Below the pieces are notes generated by a model. The model was given only the letters and a program-made list of their open reading frames with translations. It did not search any database and was not told the origin of the DNA. From contig JBMNLH010000008.1 in the NCBI GenBank assembly GCA_050952625.1, positions 10,293 to 74,292 on the forward strand: DNA of 64,000 bases, read 5' to 3'. Positions within the stretch are counted from its first letter, which is position 1. Each line of letters opens with the position of its first letter. Origin of the DNA: Bacillota bacterium. GTDB lineage: Bacteria; Bacillota; Ch66; Ch109. Position numbers and translations under genes: made by a program. This document shows positions 1,637 to 50,167 of the stretch, piece after piece.

Positions 1637-2278
1637 GTGACCGATACATTTAATGAGCATTTTTTGAAATGGGTTAATAACGCATGCGGTGAATGGAGTT
1701 ATCCTGAGCCTTCTAAAGCTTATTATGAAAAAGTGAACAAAAGAATACCTGAAGGTGTAAGAACCCTAATTGGTGAAGGAATTAAGCAAGACATTATACT
1801 CACTCATGGCCATAAATTTTTATTAAAAGGACTTACTCCAAATAAAGGCCCTTACAGCTGGTTTAGCAAAAATGATTCTGTCCGGGAGCCCAATCCGAAC
1901 TGGGAGTACTATATCCAGGTTGCCCTCTATGCCCAACTTTATTTTGCAGCTAAATCAAAAGAACTGACGCTCACTTTTGAAGACGACCTTATGGATCTGG
2001 CACTGTATAATGGAAACAAGCTTTTAGTGTGTATTGAAGTAAAAGAAAAAGCCGACCATATTCAGAAATTGATTTCAGGAATAAAAAAATACCAAAATGG
2101 AGTAGATTTTGTTTCTCCGGATAGGGGTAATGACCCTTTGCGTAAGGCGAAATACATAATAAATAGAAAGCCGGAATATTTTTGTGGATATTCCATAGGT
2201 GCAAGGTTTGACTTTAAAGTAGTATTTCCAAATAACAATACATTTAGGTTGGAGAAAGACATAATTCCATGGGTGTAA
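1637..2278 (+). CDS. hypothetical protein with PD-(D/E)XK nuclease-like motif
   Basis: GGAGG RBS before GTG; MDLALYNGNKLLVCIEVKEK resembles a D...E-x-K active site. Confidence 0.6.
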   Translation: MTDTFNEHFLKWVNNACGEWSYPEPSKAYYEKVNKRIPEGVRTLIGEGIKQDIILTHGHKFLLKGLTPNKGPYSWFSKNDSVREPNPNWEYYIQVALYAQLYFAAKSKELTLTFEDDLMDLALYNGNKLLVCIEVKEKADHIQKLISGIKKYQNGVDFVSPDRGNDPLRKAKYIINRKPEYFCGYSIGARFDFKVVFPNNNTFRLEKDIIPWV

Positions 2279-2325
2279 AGACTTACTTTGGCCAAGTCCG
2301 GATTCTTTGGAAGGGGGGAAATGGT

Positions 2326-2835
2326 ATGTCCAGAAGTATCAGTTTGTCCAAAACACAGCAATATTTGGATTGGCTTAAAACGAAATTATTTCTCGATTCA
2401 AATGCTGAAAGTGCAAAAAAGAGGGTTGTTAAGCGAGGCGAAGTTTATAAATGTAATCTAGGCATAGGTATTGGAAGTGAAGAGTCCAAAGAAAGACCAT
2501 GTGTGGTTTTGCAACGAGATAAGGCTAATTTGGAATCACCTAACACGATAGTGGCCCCGATAACTCATACTTCATCTACACTGCCTGTAGTTATACCAAT
2601 AAGTCCTAAATACAATAATTCTGGGGATGTTGTGCTAGAAGGGAATGTGTTATTAGGAAATATTGCTTGTGTAAGCAAGGCTCGATTAGGAGATTATGTC
2701 GCAAAATTGGAGCCCTCAGAAATGAGAGCTGTTGATGAAGCGATTGCAATTTCCTTGGATATTAAGGGGCACTATGATAAGTTGAATAATATACTTAATG
2801 ATAAACTAGTTTATATCGACAAGCTCAAAGATTAA
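2326..2835 (+). CDS. PemK/MazF-family toxin, C-terminus cut by IS256
   Basis: VKRGEVY...GIGSEESKERPCVVLQ...NTIVAPIT; ATG 2326 after AAGGGGGG; the stop codon lies within the IS256 IRL. Confidence 0.85.
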   Translation: MSRSISLSKTQQYLDWLKTKLFLDSNAESAKKRVVKRGEVYKCNLGIGIGSEESKERPCVVLQRDKANLESPNTIVAPITHTSSTLPVVIPISPKYNNSGDVVLEGNVLLGNIACVSKARLGDYVAKLEPSEMRAVDEAIAISLDIKGHYDKLNNILNDKLVYIDKLKD

Positions 2836-3983
2836 GTCTATATAATGGTGTAAAAAGAAGTTGAGCCAAAGCTCATACCTCGGTTAGAATATAAGTACCA
2901 CCAAATACCAAACCGAGGAGGATGAACCATGGCTCAGTTTAATATTACAATAACCGAAGAACTTTTGCACGGACTTTTTTTATCAAACGGCAGGGATGAA
3001 GCATTTTCCAAGCTATTAGAGGAAATCTTCAACCAGGTACTTTTAGCCCAATCTTCAGAACAGATAGGCGCTGAGCCCTATGAGAGAACTGAAGAAAGAA
3101 CCGCATACCGCAATGGGTTTCGAGATAGACAAATGACTACGCGAGTAGGTACACTTACATTGCGTGTCCCCAGGCATCGAAATGGACAGTTCTCTACAAA
3201 GCTTTTTGCTCGATACCAGCGCAGTGAACAAGCGTTGGTGCTGGCTATGATGGAGATGGTCATCAATGGTGTTTCCACTCGAAAAGTTGAACTAATTACT
3301 GAAGAGCTATGTGGAAAAAAGTTTTCAAAATCGACCATATCAGAGCTATGTAAGAACTTAGATCCAATAGTAGAAGCATTCCGTACAAGGCCCCTGCAAA
3401 GCTATTATCCCTTTGTCATGGTGGATGCCATCTATGTAAAGGTGCGGGAAAATGGACGTGTACAGTCAAGAGGTATGCTTATTGCCATTGCCGTTAACGA
3501 AGATGGCTATCGTGAAATCATCGGGTTTCAATTAGCCAACAGCGAATCAGAAAGCAGTTGGGGTGAGTTCTTTTCTTCACTCAAGGATCGTGGGCTAAAG
3601 GATGTTCGCCTGGTTACCTCTGATGACCATAAAGGGCTGGTTAATGCTGTTAGAAAACATTTTCAAGGTGCTAGCTGGCAGCGTTGTCAAACCCACTTTT
3701 CCAGGAACATACTGGATCATACGCCTAAAGCATTACAAACGGAAATTAAGGAAGAACTGCGCCAGCTTTATGAGGCTGTAGACCTTGAGAGTGCTCGTAA
3801 AATCAGAGACCGCATTATCCAAACATATGTGGTCAAAGCACCAAAAGCCACAGCTCTCCTGGACGAAGCATTTGATGATATTACTGCTGTTCTTGCGCTA
3901 CCCCTGAAGCGGCTTGAACCCCTATTATTGGAGAATATACACTTAAAGCTTAAGCTTACATGAAATATAACGTTTTACCTTGA

Positions 3984-4131
3984 GCAACCGCCCTTGACAT
4001 GGGGGCCCCTGGTGTCCGTGTTTCTTAGGGCCGGCCAGGGCCCGCTGCAGCTAATGCTTTTGCGGCCCTTTGCCAGGGATAGGCTAACACGGACACCCTC
4101 CCCATGTAAAGGGTCTTCGATGAACGGTTGC
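3984..4131 (-). other. long hairpin with sigmaA-like boxes (sso-like), copy in IS3
   Basis: CCCTTGACATGGGG/CCCCATGTAAAGGG and GGTGTCCGTGTT/AACACGGACACC arms; minus strand TTTACA-18-TAGCCT. Confidence 0.7.
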
Positions 4132-5084
4132 TAGGCGACCATTTTCTTCTCTGTAATCTGGTTGCTCATAACAGCTTCATAATATTTAGCAGGTGCCATG
4201 TACCCTATGCTGCCATGCCGGCGACGATTGTTGTAATAATCCATGTATTCGCTGATGACTCTGTATGCATCTGTAAAGCTGGTAAACTCATTTCTGCTAT
4301 AGCATTCATCTTCTAATATAGAATGAAAGGACTCAATATAGGCGTTCATATTAGGACTTTTAACTGGTATTCTTTCGTGAGTTAATTTCCATTTCCAGCA
4401 TGTCTCTTCAAATATTTTAGCGGTAAACTGCGGGCCATTATCAGTCCTTATTATTGGAAGTTCCATGCCAGGCTTTAAATTGCGTTTATTAAGCGAATTT
4501 ATAAGTACTGCGCAGGCATCCTTAGCTGTAGCACTTAATCCAAGGTGATAGTCAATTACTGAACGGTCAAACACGTCTATAAGGGATAATTGGAAGAAGA
4601 ACCTGCTCATACCCTCAATGTAACCATACTTCAGGTCCATTTGCCAGTGTTGGTTAGGGGCAGTTACTTCATCTCGCTTTGCCAGTTTTCTCGGCCGGTC
4701 TAGATATATTTTTCTCTGAGGACGCAATACGTTAAGTTCTTTACAGAGCCGGTATGTTTTCTTATGGTTTATGATAAGCTGGTAATCCTCTTTCAGGGTT
4801 GCGTTGATTTTTTTATAGCCATAAGGGAAACCATCCCCGGTAACTATCTCTTTAATATATTCCTTAATTAATTCGTCAGAGATTTGCTCACCTTCTAGAT
4901 TTAATGAGTACTCTGATATCTTGCGCCCCGGTTTCTTCTTTGGTAGTTCCTGGTTAATAGCACTTATAGTTTCTTTGATTTTATGATAGTAGGTGGATGA
5001 AGCCAAGCCGACAGAGCTAAGGACCAGAGAAGCTTTATAGCCCTTATCTATCCACCTTTTAGCTATGGTAACCCTGTCGGCTAC
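4131..5084 (-). CDS. IS3 OrfB (DDE integrase core), -1 frame to OrfA
   Basis: WQMDLKY, IRTDNGPQF, NAYIESFH, YYNNRRRHGS; frame open back to the OrfA stop. Confidence 0.92.
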   Translation of the reverse strand, partial: VADRVTIAKRWIDKGYKASLVLSSVGLASSTYYHKIKETISAINQELPKKKPGRKISEYSLNLEGEQISDELIKEYIKEIVTGDGFPYGYKKINATLKEDYQLIINHKKTYRLCKELNVLRPQRKIYLDRPRKLAKRDEVTAPNQHWQMDLKYGYIEGMSRFFFQLSLIDVFDRSVIDYHLGLSATAKDACAVLINSLNKRNLKPGMELPIIRTDNGPQFTAKIFEETCWKWKLTHERIPVKSPNMNAYIESFHSILEDECYSRNEFTSFTDAYRVISEYMDYYNNRRRHGSIGYMAPAKYYEAVMSNQITEKKMVA

Positions 5085-5392
5085 CGAGGGTTTTGGATAT
5101 CCCTTAACTCTCTTAAAATAGCCAACTCTAATTCTTTATCAGCCAGAAGGCGTTTTAGCCTGTCATTCTCAGTACTAACTTCTTTAAGCTGTTTTTCCAG
5201 AGCTTTTTGGCGGTCATCTTTAACTTTAGGCAGTCTCTTTATGGAGCCGTTTTTTCGATATTTACTTAACCAAGTATGAATTGTATTAGCCGACATTTCA
5301 TGCCTGCGAGCTACCAAGGCAACGTTACCTGTTTCCTGGCACTCTTTTATAATTAATTCCTTGAATTCATCGCTGTATTGCTTGCTTTTCAT
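5081..5392 (-). CDS. IS3 OrfA (HTH + coiled coil)
   Basis: YSDEFK...VARRHEMSANTIHTW; slippery A_AAC_CCT at 5093-5087 just before the stop. Confidence 0.92.
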   Translation of the reverse strand: MKSKQYSDEFKELIIKECQETGNVALVARRHEMSANTIHTWLSKYRKNGSIKRLPKVKDDRQKALEKQLKEVSTENDRLKRLLADKELELAILRELRDIQNPR

Positions 5393-5681
5393 GAAAATCT
5401 ACCCCCTACTATTATGTTAACGTATTACACGTGCTTTCTCCAAATTTATTAGGGGGCTAGATAGCTACAAACGGTGTGGAAAGGTTGAATGAGGAAATTC
5501 GTCGTCGAGAGCGGGTCATTCGAATCTTTCCCAATGCTGCATCCGTCATCCGGCTCATGGGGGCTCTATTAATAGAGCAGGATGAGAAATGGCAGACCGG
5601 CCGTAAATACTTTGATATGCAGCTGTACTATCAAGTGCAGAATAAGGAATCAAAGTCTGGCACTGCTGCATAGAAAACGCA

Positions 5682-5842
5682 TTTATTCCACGGTCTGTTG
5701 ACAATGAGCCTCCCATGGCATGTTTTCAGGCATCAGGGCCTTCCCCCTTATCTTTGAGGAGAAGTCTTGCGCCTGGGTGGTGATGCCCGGCCAACAGCCT
5801 AACATGCCATGTTCTCATCGTCAACTGCTTTCGCGGCATAAA
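5682..5842 (-). other. long hairpin with RS_B-like motif and sigmaA-like boxes (ssoA-like), copy in IS256 #1
   Basis: Minus strand TTTATGCCGCGAAA-gcag-TTGACG-17-TAGGCT; arms GTTGACAATGAG/CTCATCGTCAAC and CATGGCATGTT/AACATGCCATG. Confidence 0.7.
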
Positions 5843-6084
5843 AACGCTTAGGCTATTGTCTCATTAGCTACCGTTTGATAACCGAGGTAATTTACACACT
5901 AATTTGGACTTGACTTCGCATAGTCAAGTCCAAAATAGTGTGTAATTTCCTCGGCAACCTACGTAGTGAAGATTTTGTCCTATCTATGCAAACATCCGTT
6001 TTAATCCAAGAATGTAAATAATTAAGAATGGAGAATGGAAATTATCAATTTCTCTAAAAGGTAAAGCAATAACTTAAATCAAAA

Positions 6085-6240
6085 GGCCGTTTATCGGAGC
6101 AAAGCGAAGACCCTTTATCATGGAGGAGCAGCCCGTGTTAGCCTATCTAGGCAGAGGGGCGTGCCTCTAACAACAATCCACTGGCCCGCTGCCGCTTCTC
6201 CGAAACACGGGCTGTAGAGGCCTCCATGTCAAGGGCGGCC
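6085..6240 (+). other. long hairpin with sigmaA-like boxes (sso-like), copy in IS256 #2
   Basis: CCCTTTATCATGGAGG/CCTCCATGTCAAGGG and CAGCCCGTGTT/AACACGGGCTG arms; TTATCA-18-TAGCCT. Confidence 0.7.
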
Positions 6241-6280
6241 GTGTGATAATTTTAGGTACGTAGCGTCGAGAATGAACACA

Positions 6281-7492
6281 TTAAGCCACGGCTGAATTAT
6301 TGGAAGCTTTTTTTTGCAGCACTTGGTAGTACAGGTCCATATCAAAATATTTACGGCCTGTTTGCCATTTCTCGTCCTGTTCCATTAGTAGTGCACCCAT
6401 CAGCCGAATCACAGACTGTTCATTAGGAAAGATGCGAATAACCCGCTCACGACGCCGTATTTCCTGGTTGAGCCGTTCCACTCCGTTAGTGGTGCGTAGT
6501 CTTTTTCGGTACTTTAGTGGCAGGATTAAAACGGCGGTAATGTCATCAAATGCTTCATCCAAAAGACATACAGCTTTCGGTGCTTTGGATTCGTATTTGT
6601 TGATAATCTTATCCCGGGTATCTCGGGCACTTTCAATGTCAACTGCTTCATAGAGTTGTCGTAAATCTTCTTTGATTTCCGGCTGGTGTGACTTGGGTGT
6701 CTGGTCCAACATATTTCTGGAAAAATGGGTTTGACACCGCTGCCAGGTGGCTCCCTGAAAATGTTTCTGTATAGCATTTACCAGTCCTTTATGATTATCA
6801 GAAGTGATCAGGTGGACACTTTTTAGTCCTCGTTCTTCAAGAGAACCAAAGAGTTCACCCCAACTGCTTTCAGATTCAGTGTTAGCTACATGAAAACCGA
6901 TGATTTCACGACATCCTTCTTTGTTTACACCGATGGCGATTAAGAGCCCCCTGGACTGTACCCGGCTGTCTTCTCGCACTTTCAGGTAGAGGGCATCCAC
7001 TATTAAAAATGGATATTGGTTTTCCAGGGGTCTTGTCCGAAAGGTGTGAACTAATGGATCTAGTTTTTTACATAAAGCTGAGACTGTTGACTTGGAAAAT
7101 TTTTTGCCACAAAGCTCTTCAGTGATGGATTCGACTTTACGGGTAGAGACACCGTTGACCACCATTTCCATCATGGCCAGGACTAATGCCTGTTCGCTGC
7201 GCTGATAGCGTTCAAAGAGTTCTGTGCTAAATTTACCGTTCCGATGGCGGGGAACGCGTAAATGTATTGTTCCAACCCGGGTGGTCATCTGCCGTTCCCG
7301 AAAGCCGTTACGGTAGCCCAGCCGTTCATCTGTTCTTTCATATGGGGCGGCACCAATTTGTTCTGCTGACTGCTTTAAAAGTACTTGGTTGAAGATCTCC
7401 TCCAGTAGTTTGGAAAATGCTTCATCCCGACCATTTGAAACAAAAAGTCCGTGTAAATGTTCTTCGGTTAGGGTAATGTTAAACTGAGTCAT
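6281..7492 (-). CDS. IS256 (Mutator-type) transposase
   Basis: RNGFRER, VDALYLKVR, TSDNHKGL, WQRCQTHF, TTNGVERLN. Confidence 0.97.
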   Translation of the reverse strand: MTQFNITLTEEHLHGLFVSNGRDEAFSKLLEEIFNQVLLKQSAEQIGAAPYERTDERLGYRNGFRERQMTTRVGTIHLRVPRHRNGKFSTELFERYQRSEQALVLAMMEMVVNGVSTRKVESITEELCGKKFSKSTVSALCKKLDPLVHTFRTRPLENQYPFLIVDALYLKVREDSRVQSRGLLIAIGVNKEGCREIIGFHVANTESESSWGELFGSLEERGLKSVHLITSDNHKGLVNAIQKHFQGATWQRCQTHFSRNMLDQTPKSHQPEIKEDLRQLYEAVDIESARDTRDKIINKYESKAPKAVCLLDEAFDDITAVLILPLKYRKRLRTTNGVERLNQEIRRRERVIRIFPNEQSVIRLMGALLMEQDEKWQTGRKYFDMDLYYQVLQKKASNNSAVA

Positions 7493-7562
7493 GGATTCAT
7501 TCCTCCCTCGGTTTGGTATTTGATAGGCACTTATATCTTAACCGAGGAAATGAATTTATGGC

Positions 7563-8303
7563 TCATTTTGTTTTTACACCATTATACGGACTTGATCGGC
7601 TCGCATTATCTTTGAGCCACTTTCGCCAAATCGGGTAATCCGGCACATATTCCCCTACTAGGTTCCAAAACTCTGGTGCATGGTTCATATACCGAAGATG
7701 GGCCAACTCATGCACTACCAGGTAATCCAATACCTCGGCCGGGGCCAAGATAATCCGCCAGTTCAGGTTAATATTGCCCTTGCTTGAGCAACTGCCCCAT
7801 CTAGTTTTTTGATCCTTGATGACCAATCGGTTGTATTTCAACCCCATAATCCGGGCGAAATAATCTAACCGTTCCTGAAAAACTCGTTTCGCCTGAACCC
7901 GATACCATTTATGCAGTGACTCTCTCACAATTTGCGGCCAGTCTTCTTGAGGAACAATGTTAGGCAGCTCCACCCAAAAACAGTCGCCGGTGAATTTAAT
8001 GGTTATCGTTTTTCCAGCCACAACCCGGGTAGACAGCAGGCAACTTCGACCCTGATAAAGAAAAGTCTCGCCTGTCACATGCTTTTTCTGCTGCTGCTGG
8101 TTTTGGCTCCGCCAATCCAGGACGTGCTTGAGGATCCAATCTCTTTTTGCTTCCACAAATCTCTTTGCTTCCGTGACAGTTACTCCCTGAGGTACAGAAA
8201 CCGTCACCTTGTCCTGCTTAATTCGAATATTAAGTCTTTTGGCGCGAGTACTTCTTCTAACTTCATACTCGATTTTGGTATTATTAACAATCAAGTGCTC
8301 CAT
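7563..8303 (-). CDS. M48/YgjP (DUF45) metal-dependent hydrolase; last ~12 aa read from the IS256 end
   Basis: KTRWGSCS, YLVVHELAHL, NHAPEFW. Confidence 0.9.
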   Translation of the reverse strand: MEHLIVNNTKIEYEVRRSTRAKRLNIRIKQDKVTVSVPQGVTVTEAKRFVEAKRDWILKHVLDWRSQNQQQQKKHVTGETFLYQGRSCLLSTRVVAGKTITIKFTGDCFWVELPNIVPQEDWPQIVRESLHKWYRVQAKRVFQERLDYFARIMGLKYNRLVIKDQKTRWGSCSSKGNINLNWRIILAPAEVLDYLVVHELAHLRYMNHAPEFWNLVGEYVPDYPIWRKWLKDNASRSSPYNGVKTK

Positions 8304-49980: not shown

Positions 49981-50007
49981 CCACGCCAAAATAAATGGCC
50001 AAAATCT

Positions 50008-50130
50008 ACTCCTTTCCAAAAGGGAGGCGCATCCGTTTCCGTCTGACCTGCCACAGCCATTAATGCACCCTGTCGGCCATCCTCCCATGAAACCGAAAAA
50101 TCGGTCTTTTAGGCTAGAATGGCTCGGAGA
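50008..50130 (-). ncRNA. Moco RNA motif (molybdenum-cofactor riboswitch, P3-containing)
   Basis: CUCCGAG...CCUAA...CAUGG, P3 GCCGACAG/CUGUGGC, GAAA tetraloop, GCCUCCC..GGAAAGGAG 3' end. Confidence 0.85.
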
Positions 50131-50167
50131 CAATATTAAATTGGGCATCGCAACCTATCAAGGTAAA

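What the first reader, a model, noticed from the sequence alone, without database searches (positions are those of the whole stretch)
5682..5842. IS-borne ssoA-like single-strand origin: a primer site for copy-out-paste-in transposition?
Seen (minus strand): TTTATGCCGCGAAA-gcag-TTGACG-17 nt-TAGGCT, with a TG extended -10, on the 5' arm of a long hairpin whose -35 is paired and -10 unpaired. The sibling hairpins read TTTACA-18-TAGCCT and TTATCA-18-TAGCCT, each pairing with TGTCAA. Known (recalled, to be verified): rolling-circle plasmid ssoA origins such as pMV158/pLS1 are hairpins with RS_B TTTATGCCGTGAAA next to a -35/weak -10 ssDNA promoter, where RNA polymerase makes the lagging-strand primer; the match here is 13/14. 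IS3 and IS256 both transpose via a single-strand-bridged figure-eight that replication must convert to a circle. The IS66 right end, IS1634 and IS1380 here show no such hairpin. Inference: these IS carry their own sso/Frpo-like priming signal to convert an ssDNA circle to dsDNA, or to function after entry as ssDNA. I know of no description of this. Alternative: a dsDNA promoter for antisense RNA.
Basis: partly seen in the sequence, partly recalled or inferred. Interest (0 to 1): 0.9.

Follow-up and report, generated by a model that had tools for sequence, protein, structure and literature searches.

The report
Plasmid-type single-strand origin inside insertion sequences
The hairpin is a relative of the single-strand replication origins of rolling-circle plasmids, but it sits inside a jumping gene (an insertion sequence), and the same module recurs in many insertion sequences that need host replication to move, which hints at how they finish copying themselves.

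Summary
On the minus strand, 5682-5842 reads RS_B (TTTATGCCGCGAAA), TTGACG, 17 nt, TGnTAGGCT, on the 5' arm of a long hairpin. It lies inside an IS256-family element, between the transposase stop (5673) and the right end (about 5914). Two siblings lie in an IS3 element (3971-4133) and a second IS256 element (6080-6250).

- **Homology:** the hairpin matches unannotated hairpins of small Bacillus rolling-circle/MobV plasmids. It shares RS_B, the 3' partner GGAATAAATGCG and the layout of pE194 ssoA, but lacks CS-6.
- **Structure:** in 74 distinct metagenome relatives 94.5% of stem cells pair, against 33-45% in slid controls. G.T outnumbers A.C 102 to 9, so one strand folds, whatever the neighbouring gene's orientation.
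- **Promoter-like motifs:** TTGACA-like, a 16-18 nt spacer and TGnTAGGCT are conserved though unselected.
- **Context:** of 119 metagenome loci, 65 are BLAST-labelled with IS256, IS3, ISLre2, IS30, ISNCY, IS110, IS21, ISL3 or IS6-like transposases, mostly within 60 nt of the stop codon. None adjoins IS4, IS1380 or IS66.

An IS-borne, ssoA-like single-strand promoter or primer site is well supported. [quoted passage not shown] I found no description in print.

The parts
5682..5842 (-). hp2, the finding: an sso-like hairpin from RS_B to its 3' partner. Model R2 matches 5674-5849.
   Evidence: Sequence. DNA fold. R1 match 33.5 bits. R2 match 92 bits, though hp2 was in R2's training set.
5829..5842 (-). 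RS_B-like motif TTATGCCGCGAAAG, at the loop-distal 5' side.
   Evidence: Identical 14-mer in Bacillus plasmids L028-L030. 13 of 14 against pE194.
5819..5824 (-). -35-like hexamer TTGACG, paired with TGTCAA at 5698-5703.
   Evidence: In 74 relatives the column consensus is TTGAC(A/G).
5796..5804 (-). TGT + TAGGCT: an extended -10-like element at the top of the long stem, 17 nt after the -35-like hexamer.
   Evidence: TAGGCT occurs in 35 of 74 and TGn in 63 of 74 relatives.
5682..5693 (-). 3' partner CCGTGGAATAAA, which pairs with the RS_B region.
   Evidence: GGAATAAATGCG is also present in pE194 ssoA.
3971..4133 (-). hp1: sibling hairpin inside the IS3-family element, between the orfB stop (4131) and the IS end.
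   Evidence: All three genome copies of this IS carry it.
6080..6250 (+). hp3: sibling hairpin inside the second IS256-family element, antisense to its transposase gene.
   Evidence: Both genome copies carry it.
2831..5914 (+). IS256-family element 'a'. Its tnp (2929-3909 and 5466-5673) is interrupted by the IS3 element. It carries hp2 about 80 nt from its right end. The left end is approximate.
   Evidence: Pfam Transposase_mut on both pieces. Terminal repeats read. Contigs diverge at 5914/5916, and an uninterrupted form joins 3909 to 5465.
3907..5464 (-). IS3-family element (orfA 5392-5081, orfB 5006-4131) inserted in the tnp of element 'a'. It carries hp1. Ends are approximate.
   Evidence: Pfam HTH_Tnp_1 and rve. 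Three-copy repeat unit of 1558-1578 bp. Joint.
5922..7596 (-). IS256-family element 'b' (tnp 7492-6281), tail to tail with 'a'. It carries hp3.
   Evidence: Pfam. Two-copy repeat unit of 1678 bp. Loose ends at 5920/5922.

Best explanation
**What it is.** The hairpin is an RS_B-bearing, ssoA-like single-strand origin, that is, a single-stranded-DNA promoter. It is a built-in part of an IS256-family insertion sequence.

**How it would work.**
- When the minus strand is single-stranded it folds.
- The -35-like hexamer becomes double-stranded by pairing with the 3' arm.
- The G+C-rich TGnTAGGCT sits at the open top of the stem.
- Host RNA polymerase then makes a short RNA that primes complementary-strand DNA synthesis, as in rolling-circle plasmids.

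**Most likely use for the IS.** It would convert the IS strand that is circularised and displaced in copy-out-paste-in transposition into the double-stranded circle that integrates.

**Shown versus inferred.**
- Shown here: homology, structure, strand, position inside the IS, and recurrence in many IS.
- Inferred: RNA polymerase priming, taken from what is published for sso, and the use in transposition.
For: **Homology to plasmid origins**
- Weak BLAST hits of hp2 pile up on small Bacillus plasmids, 35 of 55 records, at the RS_B/-35 part.
- Model R1, built only from IS and genome copies, scores those plasmid hairpins at 29.4, 27.2 and 14.7 bits.
- The plasmid hairpin occurs in 94 plasmid records, 92 of them Bacillus. 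Examples are pBMBt1 (RepL, just upstream of mobV) and other plasmids of 4-15 kb.
- One family member lies directly after a Rep_1 gene (L056).
- pE194 ssoA has the same order of parts and the same GGAATAAATGCG.

**Structure**
- 13 sequences: 85.8% of stem cells paired against 34-52% when slid. 15 of 22 pairs show compensatory changes. 0 of 500 shuffles reach the observed value.
- 74 distinct metagenome elements, chosen only by RS_B and its partner: 94.5% paired against 33-45%. 20 of 22 pairs compensatory, 0 of 500 shuffles.

**Strand**
- G.T 102 against A.C 9.
- The bias is the same where the neighbouring gene is antisense (41 against 2) or sense (40 against 6).
- hp2 folds 7.7 kcal/mol better on the minus strand.

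**Promoter-like elements, not part of the selecting pattern**
- TTGACA 20, TTGACG 17, TTGATA 9 of 74.
- Spacer of 16-18 nt in 64 of 74.
- TGn in 63 of 74. TAGGCT or TAGCCT in 44 of 74.

**Inside IS**
- This window.
- Repeat units that end 46-251 nt beyond the hairpin in independent contexts, for IS256, rve-type and ISLre2 elements.
- A 372-nt MITE-like unit made of inverted ends plus the hairpin.

**Retained through divergence.** IS256 transposases that are 68-79% identical keep the hairpin at the same place and orientation, with different, still-paired stems.

**Context**
- 65 of 119 metagenome loci have as nearest BLAST-labelled neighbour a transposase of IS256, IS3, ISLre2, IS6-like, ISNCY, IS30, IS110, IS21 or ISL3.
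- Two more rve transposases turned up among the 10 of 36 unlabelled loci that I scanned.
- 77 of 83 labelled neighbours are tail-adjacent.

**Published background (passages read)**
- RS_B binds RNA polymerase and lies loop-distal (PMC8860593).
- ssoA is primed by RNA polymerase (PMC5703833).
- Host replication must turn the figure-eight into a circle (PMC7780238).
Against: - No experiment and no read evidence bears on priming or on single-stranded IS DNA.
- CS-6 (TAGCGT/A), a hallmark of ssoA, is absent from hp1-3 and present in 1 of 111 relatives.
- R2 scores pE194 ssoA at only 11.3 bits, E 0.067. It gives no match at E<=1 on pT181, pUB110 or pTA1060.
- The module is not required for copy-out. 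An IS21, an IS481-like and a third IS256 lineage in this genome lack it.
- It also occurs next to 14 large serine recombinase genes and 7 IS6-like genes, and in places without any mobile gene.
- Both orientations occur within single IS families: IS256 13 antisense and 4 sense, IS3 9 sense and 4 antisense. This fits only if either IS end can be the donor.
- No background census of IS families was made, so the absence from IS4, IS1380 and IS66 is descriptive.
Confidence: 0.45

Rival explanations
1. It is a working sso, but it serves horizontal transfer, not transposition. When the DNA carrying the IS enters a cell as a single strand, by conjugation, mobilisation or transformation, or replicates by rolling circle, the IS-borne origin primes the complementary strand. 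The carrier, and so the IS, establishes better.
For: - The same family sits on rolling-circle/MobV plasmids and next to Rep_1.
- It sits at the very end of larger elements with a terminal serine recombinase gene, where homology ends 2-14 nt from RS_B.
- One copy lies head-on upstream of an ArdC anti-restriction gene, the arrangement of leading-region ssDNA promoters (PMC11541004 passages).
- ICEBs1 carries an sso (PMC4595007 passages).
Against: - It does not explain why the transposases next to the module all belong to families that need replication to move.
- It does not explain why a MITE-like unit keeps the hairpin between its ends.
- It does not explain why chromosomal IS copies keep it through 68-79% protein divergence.
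Confidence: 0.25
2. It is a selfish or neutral passenger. RS_B-type origins are recombination-prone cassettes that land in the one dispensable stretch of an IS, between the stop codon and the end. Alternatively, IS insert next to such hairpins. Either way the hairpin has no role for the IS.
For: - RS_B was defined as a recombination site of plasmid cointegrate formation (PMC5703833 passage).
- The module occurs in both orientations and in many unrelated carriers.
- Some IS lineages lack it.
- In run X1 contigs join IS3 ends to 6180/6182 inside hp3, so hairpins can be insertion targets.
Against: - Stem pairing is kept by compensatory change within IS lineages.
- The hairpins lie inside the repeat units, 46-251 nt from the ends, not outside them.
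Confidence: 0.12
3. It is an ordinary double-stranded promoter. It would make an antisense RNA against the 3' end of the transposase mRNA in the IS256 elements, or read outward in the IS3 element.
For: - The -35-like hexamer is good and a TGn extended -10 is present.
- In IS256 the commoner orientation points into the transposase gene, 13 of 17.
- RNA-library contigs cover hp2, though such contigs show neither strand nor start and may be DNA.
Against: - A duplex promoter needs no covarying complement of its -35 and spacer 100 nt downstream, and no one-strand wobble bias.
- The orientation relative to the gene varies.
- The hexamer pair scores 8 of 12 and is not called by the consensus scan.
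- Homologues on plasmids lie where origins lie.
Confidence: 0.1
4. It is an RNA structure of the transposase messenger: a 3' stabiliser, terminator or processing site.
For: It lies 10-30 nt after stop codons, and RNA-library contigs cover it.
Against: - In 28 of 57 distinct oriented elements the messenger would carry the complementary strand, yet the wobble bias stays with the element's own strand, 41 against 2.
- No terminator-like site is called at any of the three hairpins.
- No Rfam family matches.
Confidence: 0.03

Closest known systems
ssoA (palA) single-strand origins of rolling-circle plasmids, such as pE194, pT181 and pLS1/pMV158
   Same: - RS_B at the loop-distal 5' side: 13 of 14 against pE194.
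- The same 3' partner, GGAATAAATGCG.
- A -35-like hexamer a few bases after RS_B, paired with the 3' arm, and a -10-like hexamer 16-17 nt on. pE194 reads TTGCGT-16-TATACT.
- A hairpin of about 160 nt, active on one strand (PMC5703833 and PMC8860593 passages).
   Different: - No CS-6. The -10-like element is G+C-rich, TAGGCT, preceded by TGn.
- The covariance model score on pE194 is weak, and there is none on pT181.
- The carrier is an insertion sequence, not a plasmid.
Unannotated hairpins of small Bacillus RepL/MobV and related plasmids (pBMBt1, pBEMB20-5, B. mycoides pl4)
   Same: - Identical TTATGCCGCGAAAG and CCGTGGAATAAA.
- The same stem plan.
- Detected by the model built from IS copies.
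   Different: - The -10-place reads CAAACT and is largely paired.
- I did not see a paper that tests these hairpins as origins. PMC4902927 does not mention an sso.
- That they are 'ssoT-like' is my recollection only.
Frpo/ssi single-stranded DNA promoters of conjugative plasmid leading regions
   Same: - A hairpin that mimics a duplex promoter on one strand and can serve transcription and priming (PMC11541004 passages; Masai and Arai 1997 not seen).
- One relative lies head-on upstream of an ArdC gene.
   Different: - hp1-3 have no gene in the position that such a promoter would drive.
- No sequence comparison with Frpo was possible, because its sequences are in a supplement I could not open.
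sso1 of ICEBs1 and the pTA1060/pBAA1 type origins
   Same: An origin of this functional kind on an integrated mobile element (PMC4595007 passages).
   Different: pTA1060 has no strict RS_B motif and no model match. It is a different structural type, described as three stem-loops.
Junction promoters of IS circles (-35 in one end, -10 in the other)
   Same: A promoter-like signal tied to the circular intermediate of copy-out-paste-in IS (PMC7780238 passages).
   Different: That signal is a duplex promoter made by abutting the ends, and it drives the transposase. This one is internal, needs a single strand, and faces no gene.

Membership tests
ssoA-type single-strand origin | RS_B consensus at the loop-distal 5' side of the hairpin | tested here: met
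   hp2 TTTATGCCGCGAAA against pE194 TTTATGCCGAGAAA is 13 of 14. The published TTATGCCGAGAAAATTT is in a PMC4598088 passage. hp1 and hp3 carry only a degenerate form, TT(C/T)ATCG..GAAGA.
ssoA-type single-strand origin | Long imperfect hairpin that forms on one strand only | tested here: met
   Folds. Covariation. G.T 102 against A.C 9.
ssoA-type single-strand origin | Promoter-like -35 and -10 within the stem next to RS_B | tested here: met
   TTGACG-17-TGnTAGGCT in hp2. Conserved in 74 relatives. pE194 has TTGCGT-16-TATACT at the same place.
ssoA-type single-strand origin | CS-6 (TAGCGT or TAGCGA) in the terminal loop | tested here: not met
   0 in hp1, hp2 and hp3. 1 of 111 distinct relatives. 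pE194 has TAGCGA.
ssoA-type single-strand origin | Detectable similarity to classical ssoA beyond the motifs | tested here: inconclusive
   R2 on pE194 gives 11.3 bits, E 0.067, full length and in register. No match at E<=1 on pT181, although RS_B is there at 3772-3784.
ssoA-type single-strand origin | Rifampicin-sensitive primer RNA synthesis by RNA polymerase on the single strand, and orientation-dependent removal of single-stranded plasmid DNA | not testable with these tools
   Needs bench work.
ssoA-type single-strand origin | Carried by a replicon with a rolling-circle Rep and double-strand origin | tested here: not met
   hp1-3 lie inside IS on a chromosomal-size contig. Relatives do lie on RepL/MobV plasmids and next to Rep_1.
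Frpo/ssi leading-region ssDNA promoter | Drives a downstream gene encoded so that RNA made on the single strand is its messenger | tested here: not met
   77 of 83 labelled neighbours are tail-adjacent, not head-on. One head-on ArdC case exists.
IS256 family insertion sequence (the carrier) | Mutator-type DDE transposase between terminal inverted repeats | tested here: met
   Pfam Transposase_mut E 6e-114 and 1.4e-12 on the two pieces, and 6.7e-134 for element b. Matching ends read. End positions supported.
Intrinsic terminator | Short G+C-rich stem followed by a T run | tested here: not met
   No such site at 5682-5842 or within hp3. One call at 4126-4140 (plus strand) touches the base of hp1 only.
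Any Rfam RNA family | Match to a curated covariance model | tested here: not met
   No match at gathering score. At E<=10 there are only chance-level matches outside the hairpins.

The most novel reading that the evidence does not exclude
A plasmid-type single-strand origin is a common cis-acting accessory of insertion sequences that move by replication (IS3, IS256, IS21, IS30, ISL3, ISLre2, IS110, ISNCY and IS6-like). On this reading their transposition passes through a free single-stranded circle or displaced strand. RNA polymerase primes its conversion to duplex DNA, exactly as for rolling-circle plasmids. IS, plasmids, mobilisable islands and filamentous phages would then exchange this module.
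Probability: 0.35. Interest if true: 0.9.

Novelty: new variant of a known kind. Interest (0 to 1): 0.8.

Why it matters
[quoted passage not shown] A conserved, strand-specific, plasmid-type priming hairpin inside many such IS gives that step a concrete cis element. It can be deleted, inverted and repaired.

**What it would predict.**
- A strand-specific single-stranded intermediate.
- Which IS end is the donor.
- A link between the replication biology of rolling-circle plasmids and that of the largest class of bacterial transposons.

**Scale.** In one metagenome sample more than half of the RS_B-type elements (65 BLAST-labelled of 119 loci) were next to IS transposases. This class of origin may therefore be mainly IS-borne in nature. 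That bears on annotation: such hairpins are unannotated in all records seen.

**Transfer.** It also bears on how IS could supply origins to plasmids and islands that transfer as single strands.

Tried and rejected
**Searches that found nothing useful**
- Rfam gave nothing for the hairpins. A 26-bit mir-32 match at 5887-5950 is the palindrome made by the two abutting IS256 ends.
- Megablast against plasmids found nothing.
- Direct-repeat search found nothing relevant.
- hp2's DNA is single-copy in the genome.
- A strict pattern scan of genome contigs found only one other genome, a Bacillota MAG with 11 identical IS3-borne copies.

**Modelling limits**
- Model R1 did not reach hp2 in the whole-genome search at E<=1. 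It did in a smaller search.
- MAFFT put hp2's 5' arm out of register in A1 and A2.
- RNAalifold on A5 gave only 16 pairs. I set the structure by hand from a column scan, so the counts lean towards it. One search is on an alignment fitted to the model.

**Classical plasmids.** pUB110 and pTA1060 show no RS_B and no match. pT181 shows no match at E<=1.

**Promoter scan.** The duplex promoter scan does not call the hairpin hexamers.

**Reads.**
- All four runs are contigs. They show neither strand, nor starts, nor single-stranded DNA, nor circle junctions of IS256a.
- RNA-library cover of hp2 may be DNA.

**Context counts: what was and was not scanned**
- Phylum sample: of 26 loci, 9 were not scanned for families (L038, L039, L040, L042, L050, L051, L058, L060, L065).
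- Metagenome set: 36 of 119 loci stayed unlabelled and only 10 of their ORFs were scanned.
- Labels are best BLAST hits to my own reference proteins, not curated calls.
- An earlier single-linkage cluster merged IS3 OrfB-like and 515-aa IS6-like proteins. It was split.
- I made no census of IS families as background, so no enrichment statistic is given.

**Literature**
- Searches for an IS-borne origin found none that describes one; 'insertion sequence', 'single-strand origin', 'copy-out'; 'sso-like' and five variants.
- PMC12016507 (passages) reports that an IS end inserted upstream of the pWV01 origin changes host range. It gives no origin inside an IS.
- I did not see Kramer 1997 or 1998, Masai and Arai 1997, or Duval-Valentin 2004. 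What I say of them is second-hand or recalled.
- Supplements were closed. Supplementary Table 2 of PMC11541004 (Frpo sequences) could bear on overlap with this family.

Full report
**1. The observation**

- GCGTTTTTATGCCGCGAAA, then GCAG, then TTGACG (5824-5819).
- 17 nt, then TAGGCT (5801-5796), with TG one base upstream.
- On the far side of a variable middle: TGTCAA (5703-5698) and CCGTGGAATAAA (5693-5682).

As single-stranded DNA this strand folds at -39.4 kcal/mol (z -4.53; 0 of 200 shuffles as good). The plus strand reaches -31.7 kcal/mol (z -2.39; 4 of 200). TTGACG is paired. TAGGCT sits where the long helix opens into the apical part.

The two sibling hairpins are as stated. hp1 (3971-4133, minus) reads TTTACA-18-TAGCCT and folds at -46.1 kcal/mol, z -6.3. 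hp3 (6080-6250, plus) reads TTATCA-18-TAGCCT and folds at -39.4 kcal/mol, z -4.2.

**2. Surroundings**

The region is a nest of three insertion sequences.
- An IS256-family element 'a' lies on the plus strand, at about 2831-5914. Its transposase gene is split at 3909/5466.
- The split is caused by an IS3-family element on the minus strand, at about 3907-5464 (orfA 5392-5081, orfB 5006-4131).
- A second IS256-family element 'b' lies on the minus strand, at about 5922-7596. It abuts 'a' tail to tail.

Where each hairpin sits:
- hp2 lies between the stop codon of 'a' (5673) and its right end.
- hp1 lies between the orfB stop and the IS3 end.
- hp3 lies between the stop of 'b' (6281) and its right end.

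That they are internal is shown three ways.
- The two halves of the interrupted gene flank the whole IS3 unit, including hp1.
- The genome holds three copies of the IS3 unit (1558-1578 bp) and two of unit 'b' (1678 bp), all with the hairpin.
- Public contigs diverge from the window at 5914/5916 and at 5920/5922, beyond hp2.

The folded, promoter-like strand is antisense to the transposase gene in both IS256 elements. It is the sense strand in the IS3 element.

**3. One family, with a conserved fold on one strand**

hp1 and hp3 align outright and differ by compensatory changes.

Model R1 was built from hp1, hp3, a solo copy in this genome (G000:C1:1282697-1282840) and an IS3-borne copy from a Bacillota MAG.
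- It finds hp2, which was not in the model, at 33.5 bits, E 1.6e-5.
- It finds copies in 5 of 60 related genomes.

On a 13-sequence alignment (A5), with a structure I set by hand:
- 85.8% of stem cells pair, against 34-52% when the partner is slid.
- 15 of 22 pairs show changes on both sides.
- 0 of 500 shuffles reach the observed values.

A larger test used 77 matches (74 distinct) among 80 metagenome stretches. These were chosen only by RS_B and its 3' partner.
- 94.5% paired against 33-45%.
- 20 of 22 pairs compensatory, 391 cells, 0 of 500 shuffles.
- That alignment is fitted to the model, which favours the structure. The slid controls share that bias only in part.

G.T pairs outnumber A.C mismatches 22 to 4 and 102 to 9. 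So it is this strand that folds, not its complement. The bias is the same whether the neighbouring transposase or recombinase gene is on the opposite strand (41 to 2) or the same strand (40 to 6). This rules out a structure of the transposase messenger.

**4. Relatives with a known role**

Weak BLAST matches of hp2 (E about 2) fall on small Bacillus plasmids in 35 of 55 records. They cover the RS_B/-35 part or the 3' partner, in unannotated DNA.

Three such plasmids were read: pBEMB20-5, B. mycoides pl4 and pBMBt1. pBMBt1 carries RepL, and the hairpin ends about 240 nt upstream of mobV.
- They share with hp2 the identical TTATGCCGCGAAAG, a TTGAC-type hexamer a few bases on, GAGGCTC..GTCAA on the 3' arm, and CCGTGGAATAAA.
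- R1 scores them at 29.4, 27.2 and 14.7 bits.
- The plasmid hairpin is in 94 plasmid records, 92 of them Bacillus, and 74 at 80% cover or more.

One genome copy lies directly after a Rep_1 gene (L056).

The classical ssoA of pE194 reads TTTATGCCGAGAAAA, TTGCGT-16-TATACT, TAGCGA in the apical part, ACGCAA, and GGAATAAATGCG. That is the same order of parts as hp2, with 13 of 14 in RS_B and an identical 12-mer partner.

Passages I read say the following.
- RS_B is the loop-distal part of the stem and is needed for RNA polymerase binding. CS-6 in the loop ends the primer (PMC8860593).
- ssoA folds when single-stranded and is primed by RNA polymerase (PMC5703833).
- RS_B and CS-6 read TTATGCCGAGAAAATTT and TAGCGT (PMC4598088).

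Against full membership:
- CS-6 is absent from hp1-3 and present in 1 of 111 distinct relatives.
- Model R2 gives pE194 only 11.3 bits (E 0.067).
- It gives nothing at E<=1 on pT181, which does have RS_B at 3772-3784, nor on pUB110 or pTA1060.

I therefore call it ssoA-like, not ssoA.

**5. The promoter-like signal**

In the 74 distinct metagenome elements the hexamer after RS_B is TTGACA (20), TTGACG (17), TTGATA (9), TTTACA (7) or TTGATG (6).
- The spacer is 16-18 nt in 64 of 74.
- The next element is TGn in 63 of 74, followed by TAGGCT (35), TAGCCT (9) or CAGGCT (8).
- None of these positions was in the selecting pattern.

T at the first, A at the second and T at the last place of the second hexamer are the positions kept. 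From general knowledge of sigma-70-type promoters, these are the bases read on the single non-template strand. That is my inference.

The middle is G+C-rich. The duplex consensus scan does not call the site (8 of 12). This fits a signal meant to work when the strand is already open.

**6. Where the family lives**

*This genome.* R2 finds seven copies: IS3 three, IS256b two, IS256a one, and one solo.

*Phylum sample.* In a sample of the phylum, 24 of 150 other genomes have at least one copy, mostly one or two. Of the 26 loci:
- 5 lie next to IS3 or IS256 transposases like the window's.
- Others lie between two IS110 genes, or directly after an ISLre2 (UPF0236), an IS21 istB, an ISL3 or a Rep_1 gene.
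- 7 lie among ordinary genes.
- 9 loci were not scanned.

By best BLAST hit to reference proteins that I had named with Pfam or NCBIfam, the nearest labelled neighbour is:

| Neighbour | Loci |
|---|---|
| IS256 | 17 |
| Large serine recombinase | 14 |
| IS3 OrfB-like | 13 |
| ISLre2 | 10 |
| IS6-like 515-aa protein (NCBIfam IS6, 80.8 bits, below its cut-off of 125) | 7 |
| ISNCY | 6 |
| IS30 | 5 |
| IS110 | 4 |
| An unknown 436-aa protein | 3 |
| IS21 | 2 |
| ISL3 | 1 |
| A Zot-like protein | 1 |
| Unlabelled | 36 |

- Of the 83 labelled, 77 have the hairpin within about 60 nt of the gene's stop codon, on either strand.
- Ten ORFs of the unlabelled loci were scanned. This added two rve transposases, an ArdC gene placed head-on, an IS5/IS1182-like gene 358 nt away and head-on, and ordinary genes.
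- No neighbour matched my IS4, IS1380 or IS66 references.

*Inside the repeat unit.* Pairs of loci that share an element in different surroundings show that the hairpin is inside it:
- 73 nt from the end in two IS256 pairs.
- 46 nt in an rve-type pair (unit 1408 nt).
- 183 nt in an ISLre2 pair (unit 1998 nt).
- By contrast, in the serine recombinase elements homology ends 2-14 nt from RS_B. There the hairpin is terminal.

*MITE-like unit.* In genome G136 a 372-nt unit with inverted ends carries the hairpin in its middle. It occurs twice at 98% identity in different places. This is a MITE-like remnant that kept the ends and the hairpin.

*IS inventory of this genome.*
- Without the hairpin: IS4 (15 copies), an unidentified repeat (11), IS481-like (4), IS1380 (3), IS66 (2), IS21 (2) and a third IS256 lineage of 1341 bp (2).
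- With it: IS3 (3 of 3), IS256b (2 of 2) and IS256a (1 of 1).

*Retention.* The IS256 transposases of 'a', 'b' and genome G149 are 68-79% identical. All three elements keep a hairpin at the same place and orientation, with different, still-paired stems.

**7. Reads (contigs only)**

- All four runs laid, two DNA and two RNA libraries from digesters, hold the uninterrupted IS256a. They join 3909 to 5465 with 19 other letters. The summed depths are 200-1300, against about 14 for this genome's own junctions.
- The stretch or parts of it stand in 20 runs of 18 studies. So the hp2-bearing IS is common in such communities.
- RNA-library contigs cover hp2. This shows neither strand nor start, and may be DNA.
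- Nothing here speaks to single-stranded intermediates.

**8. How it most likely works**

*Shown.* A conserved hairpin, folding on one defined strand, homologous to plasmid origins, with conserved promoter-like elements. It lies internal to IS of several families, and in both orientations relative to the gene.

*From the literature (passages).* Such hairpins recruit RNA polymerase on single-stranded DNA, and the short RNA primes the complementary strand. In copy-out-paste-in, one IS strand is circularised, and host replication must make the duplex circle.

*Inference.*
- DNA synthesis from the freed flank 3'-OH displaces the circularised strand.
- The hairpin on that strand then primes its complement.
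- If so, the hairpin's strand tells which end is the donor: the right end for the sense arrangement (IS3 here), the left end for the antisense arrangement (IS256 here).
- I recall that IS2 and IS911 favour the right end as donor. I did not check this.

Most families seen (IS3, IS21, IS30, IS256, IS110, ISLre2, ISL3) are in the list of circle-forming families in the passage of 10.1101/2023.06.07.543989. ISNCY and the IS6-like group are not in the passage as returned. IS6/IS26 is a copy-in family (PMC8477213, abstract start in the listing).

The rivals are given with their odds: service to transfer, passenger or insertion target, duplex promoter, and RNA structure.

**9. Novelty**

Single-strand origins and single-strand promoters are known on rolling-circle plasmids, on ICEBs1 and in plasmid leading regions. 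My searches of the held library found no description of such an origin inside insertion sequences. The library lacks most subscription journals, and I could not consult ISfinder.

The hairpin itself is a new member of a known kind. Its regular residence inside IS is a new variant of that kind.

**10. Limits**

- No enrichment statistic was computed.
- Neighbour labels rest on BLAST to my own references.
- The metagenome pattern selects the RS_B-complete subtype and multi-copy DNA.
- The function is untested.

Noticed in passing
window 5884-5952: A near-perfect 70-nt palindrome is formed by the right ends of the two IS256-family elements abutting tail to tail, with about 6-7 nt between them (5915-5921). 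Rfam's weak mir-32 match there is a chance match to this palindrome.
   Followed up: partly
window 3909/5465: The uninterrupted form of IS256a (no IS3; 19 other letters at the joint) is present in all 4 runs laid, at summed contig depths far above this genome's own junctions. The IS3 insertion is therefore particular to this copy.
   Followed up: partly
window 6180-6182 (within hp3): In run X1, contigs at about the depth of this genome join both IS3 ends to 6180/6182. That is an IS3 copy inserted into the apical part of hp3 in another copy or strain, so hairpins of this kind may attract the IS3 element.
   Followed up: no
L046 and L063 (genome G136), around locus positions 1412-1783: A 372-nt MITE-like unit with inverted ends (GGTATCTCGTG... 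/ ...CACGAGATACC) carries an RS_B-type hairpin in the middle. Two copies at 98% identity lie just upstream of tuf and of a malic enzyme gene. G136 has five model matches in all.
   Followed up: partly
L184:4904-5809 (minus strand): An ArdC-type anti-restriction gene (ArdcN + MPTase-PolyVal) lies head-on next to a family member. In this arrangement RNA made on the single strand would be its messenger, as for leading-region Frpo promoters.
   Followed up: no
L127:340-1008 (minus strand): A Zot-like (filamentous phage assembly) ORF ends 11 nt before a family member. The hairpin may serve as the complementary-strand origin of an inovirus-like element.
   Followed up: no
G000:C1:1282697-1282840 (L002 about 3998-4140, minus strand): A solo, somewhat degraded copy of the hairpin lies in an intergenic stretch with no transposase nearby. 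Its basal stem is TTTTTGGCC/GGCCAAAAA.
   Followed up: partly
window 5840-5846: The T run before RS_B is five T in the window. It is two shorter in contigs of three runs (X3, X10, X19), which gives GCGTTTATGCC as in the Bacillus plasmids.
   Followed up: no
window 2269-2835 and 1637-2278: A PemK/MazF-like toxin ORF (188 aa) lies directly left of IS256a. It is preceded by an overlapping 213-aa ORF without a Pfam match, possibly its antitoxin or a longer fused form.
   Followed up: no
window 49993-50141 (minus strand): A molybdenum cofactor riboswitch (RF01055, 50.4 bits) is the only Rfam match at gathering score in the window.
   Followed up: no
G000, e.g. C1:1272818-1274189 and C1:1276456-1278203: An 11-copy repeat family of 1.4-1.7 kb has only short ORFs (at most 143 aa in the two copies read). 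It was not identified. A 15-copy IS4-family element is the commonest IS of the genome.
   Followed up: partly
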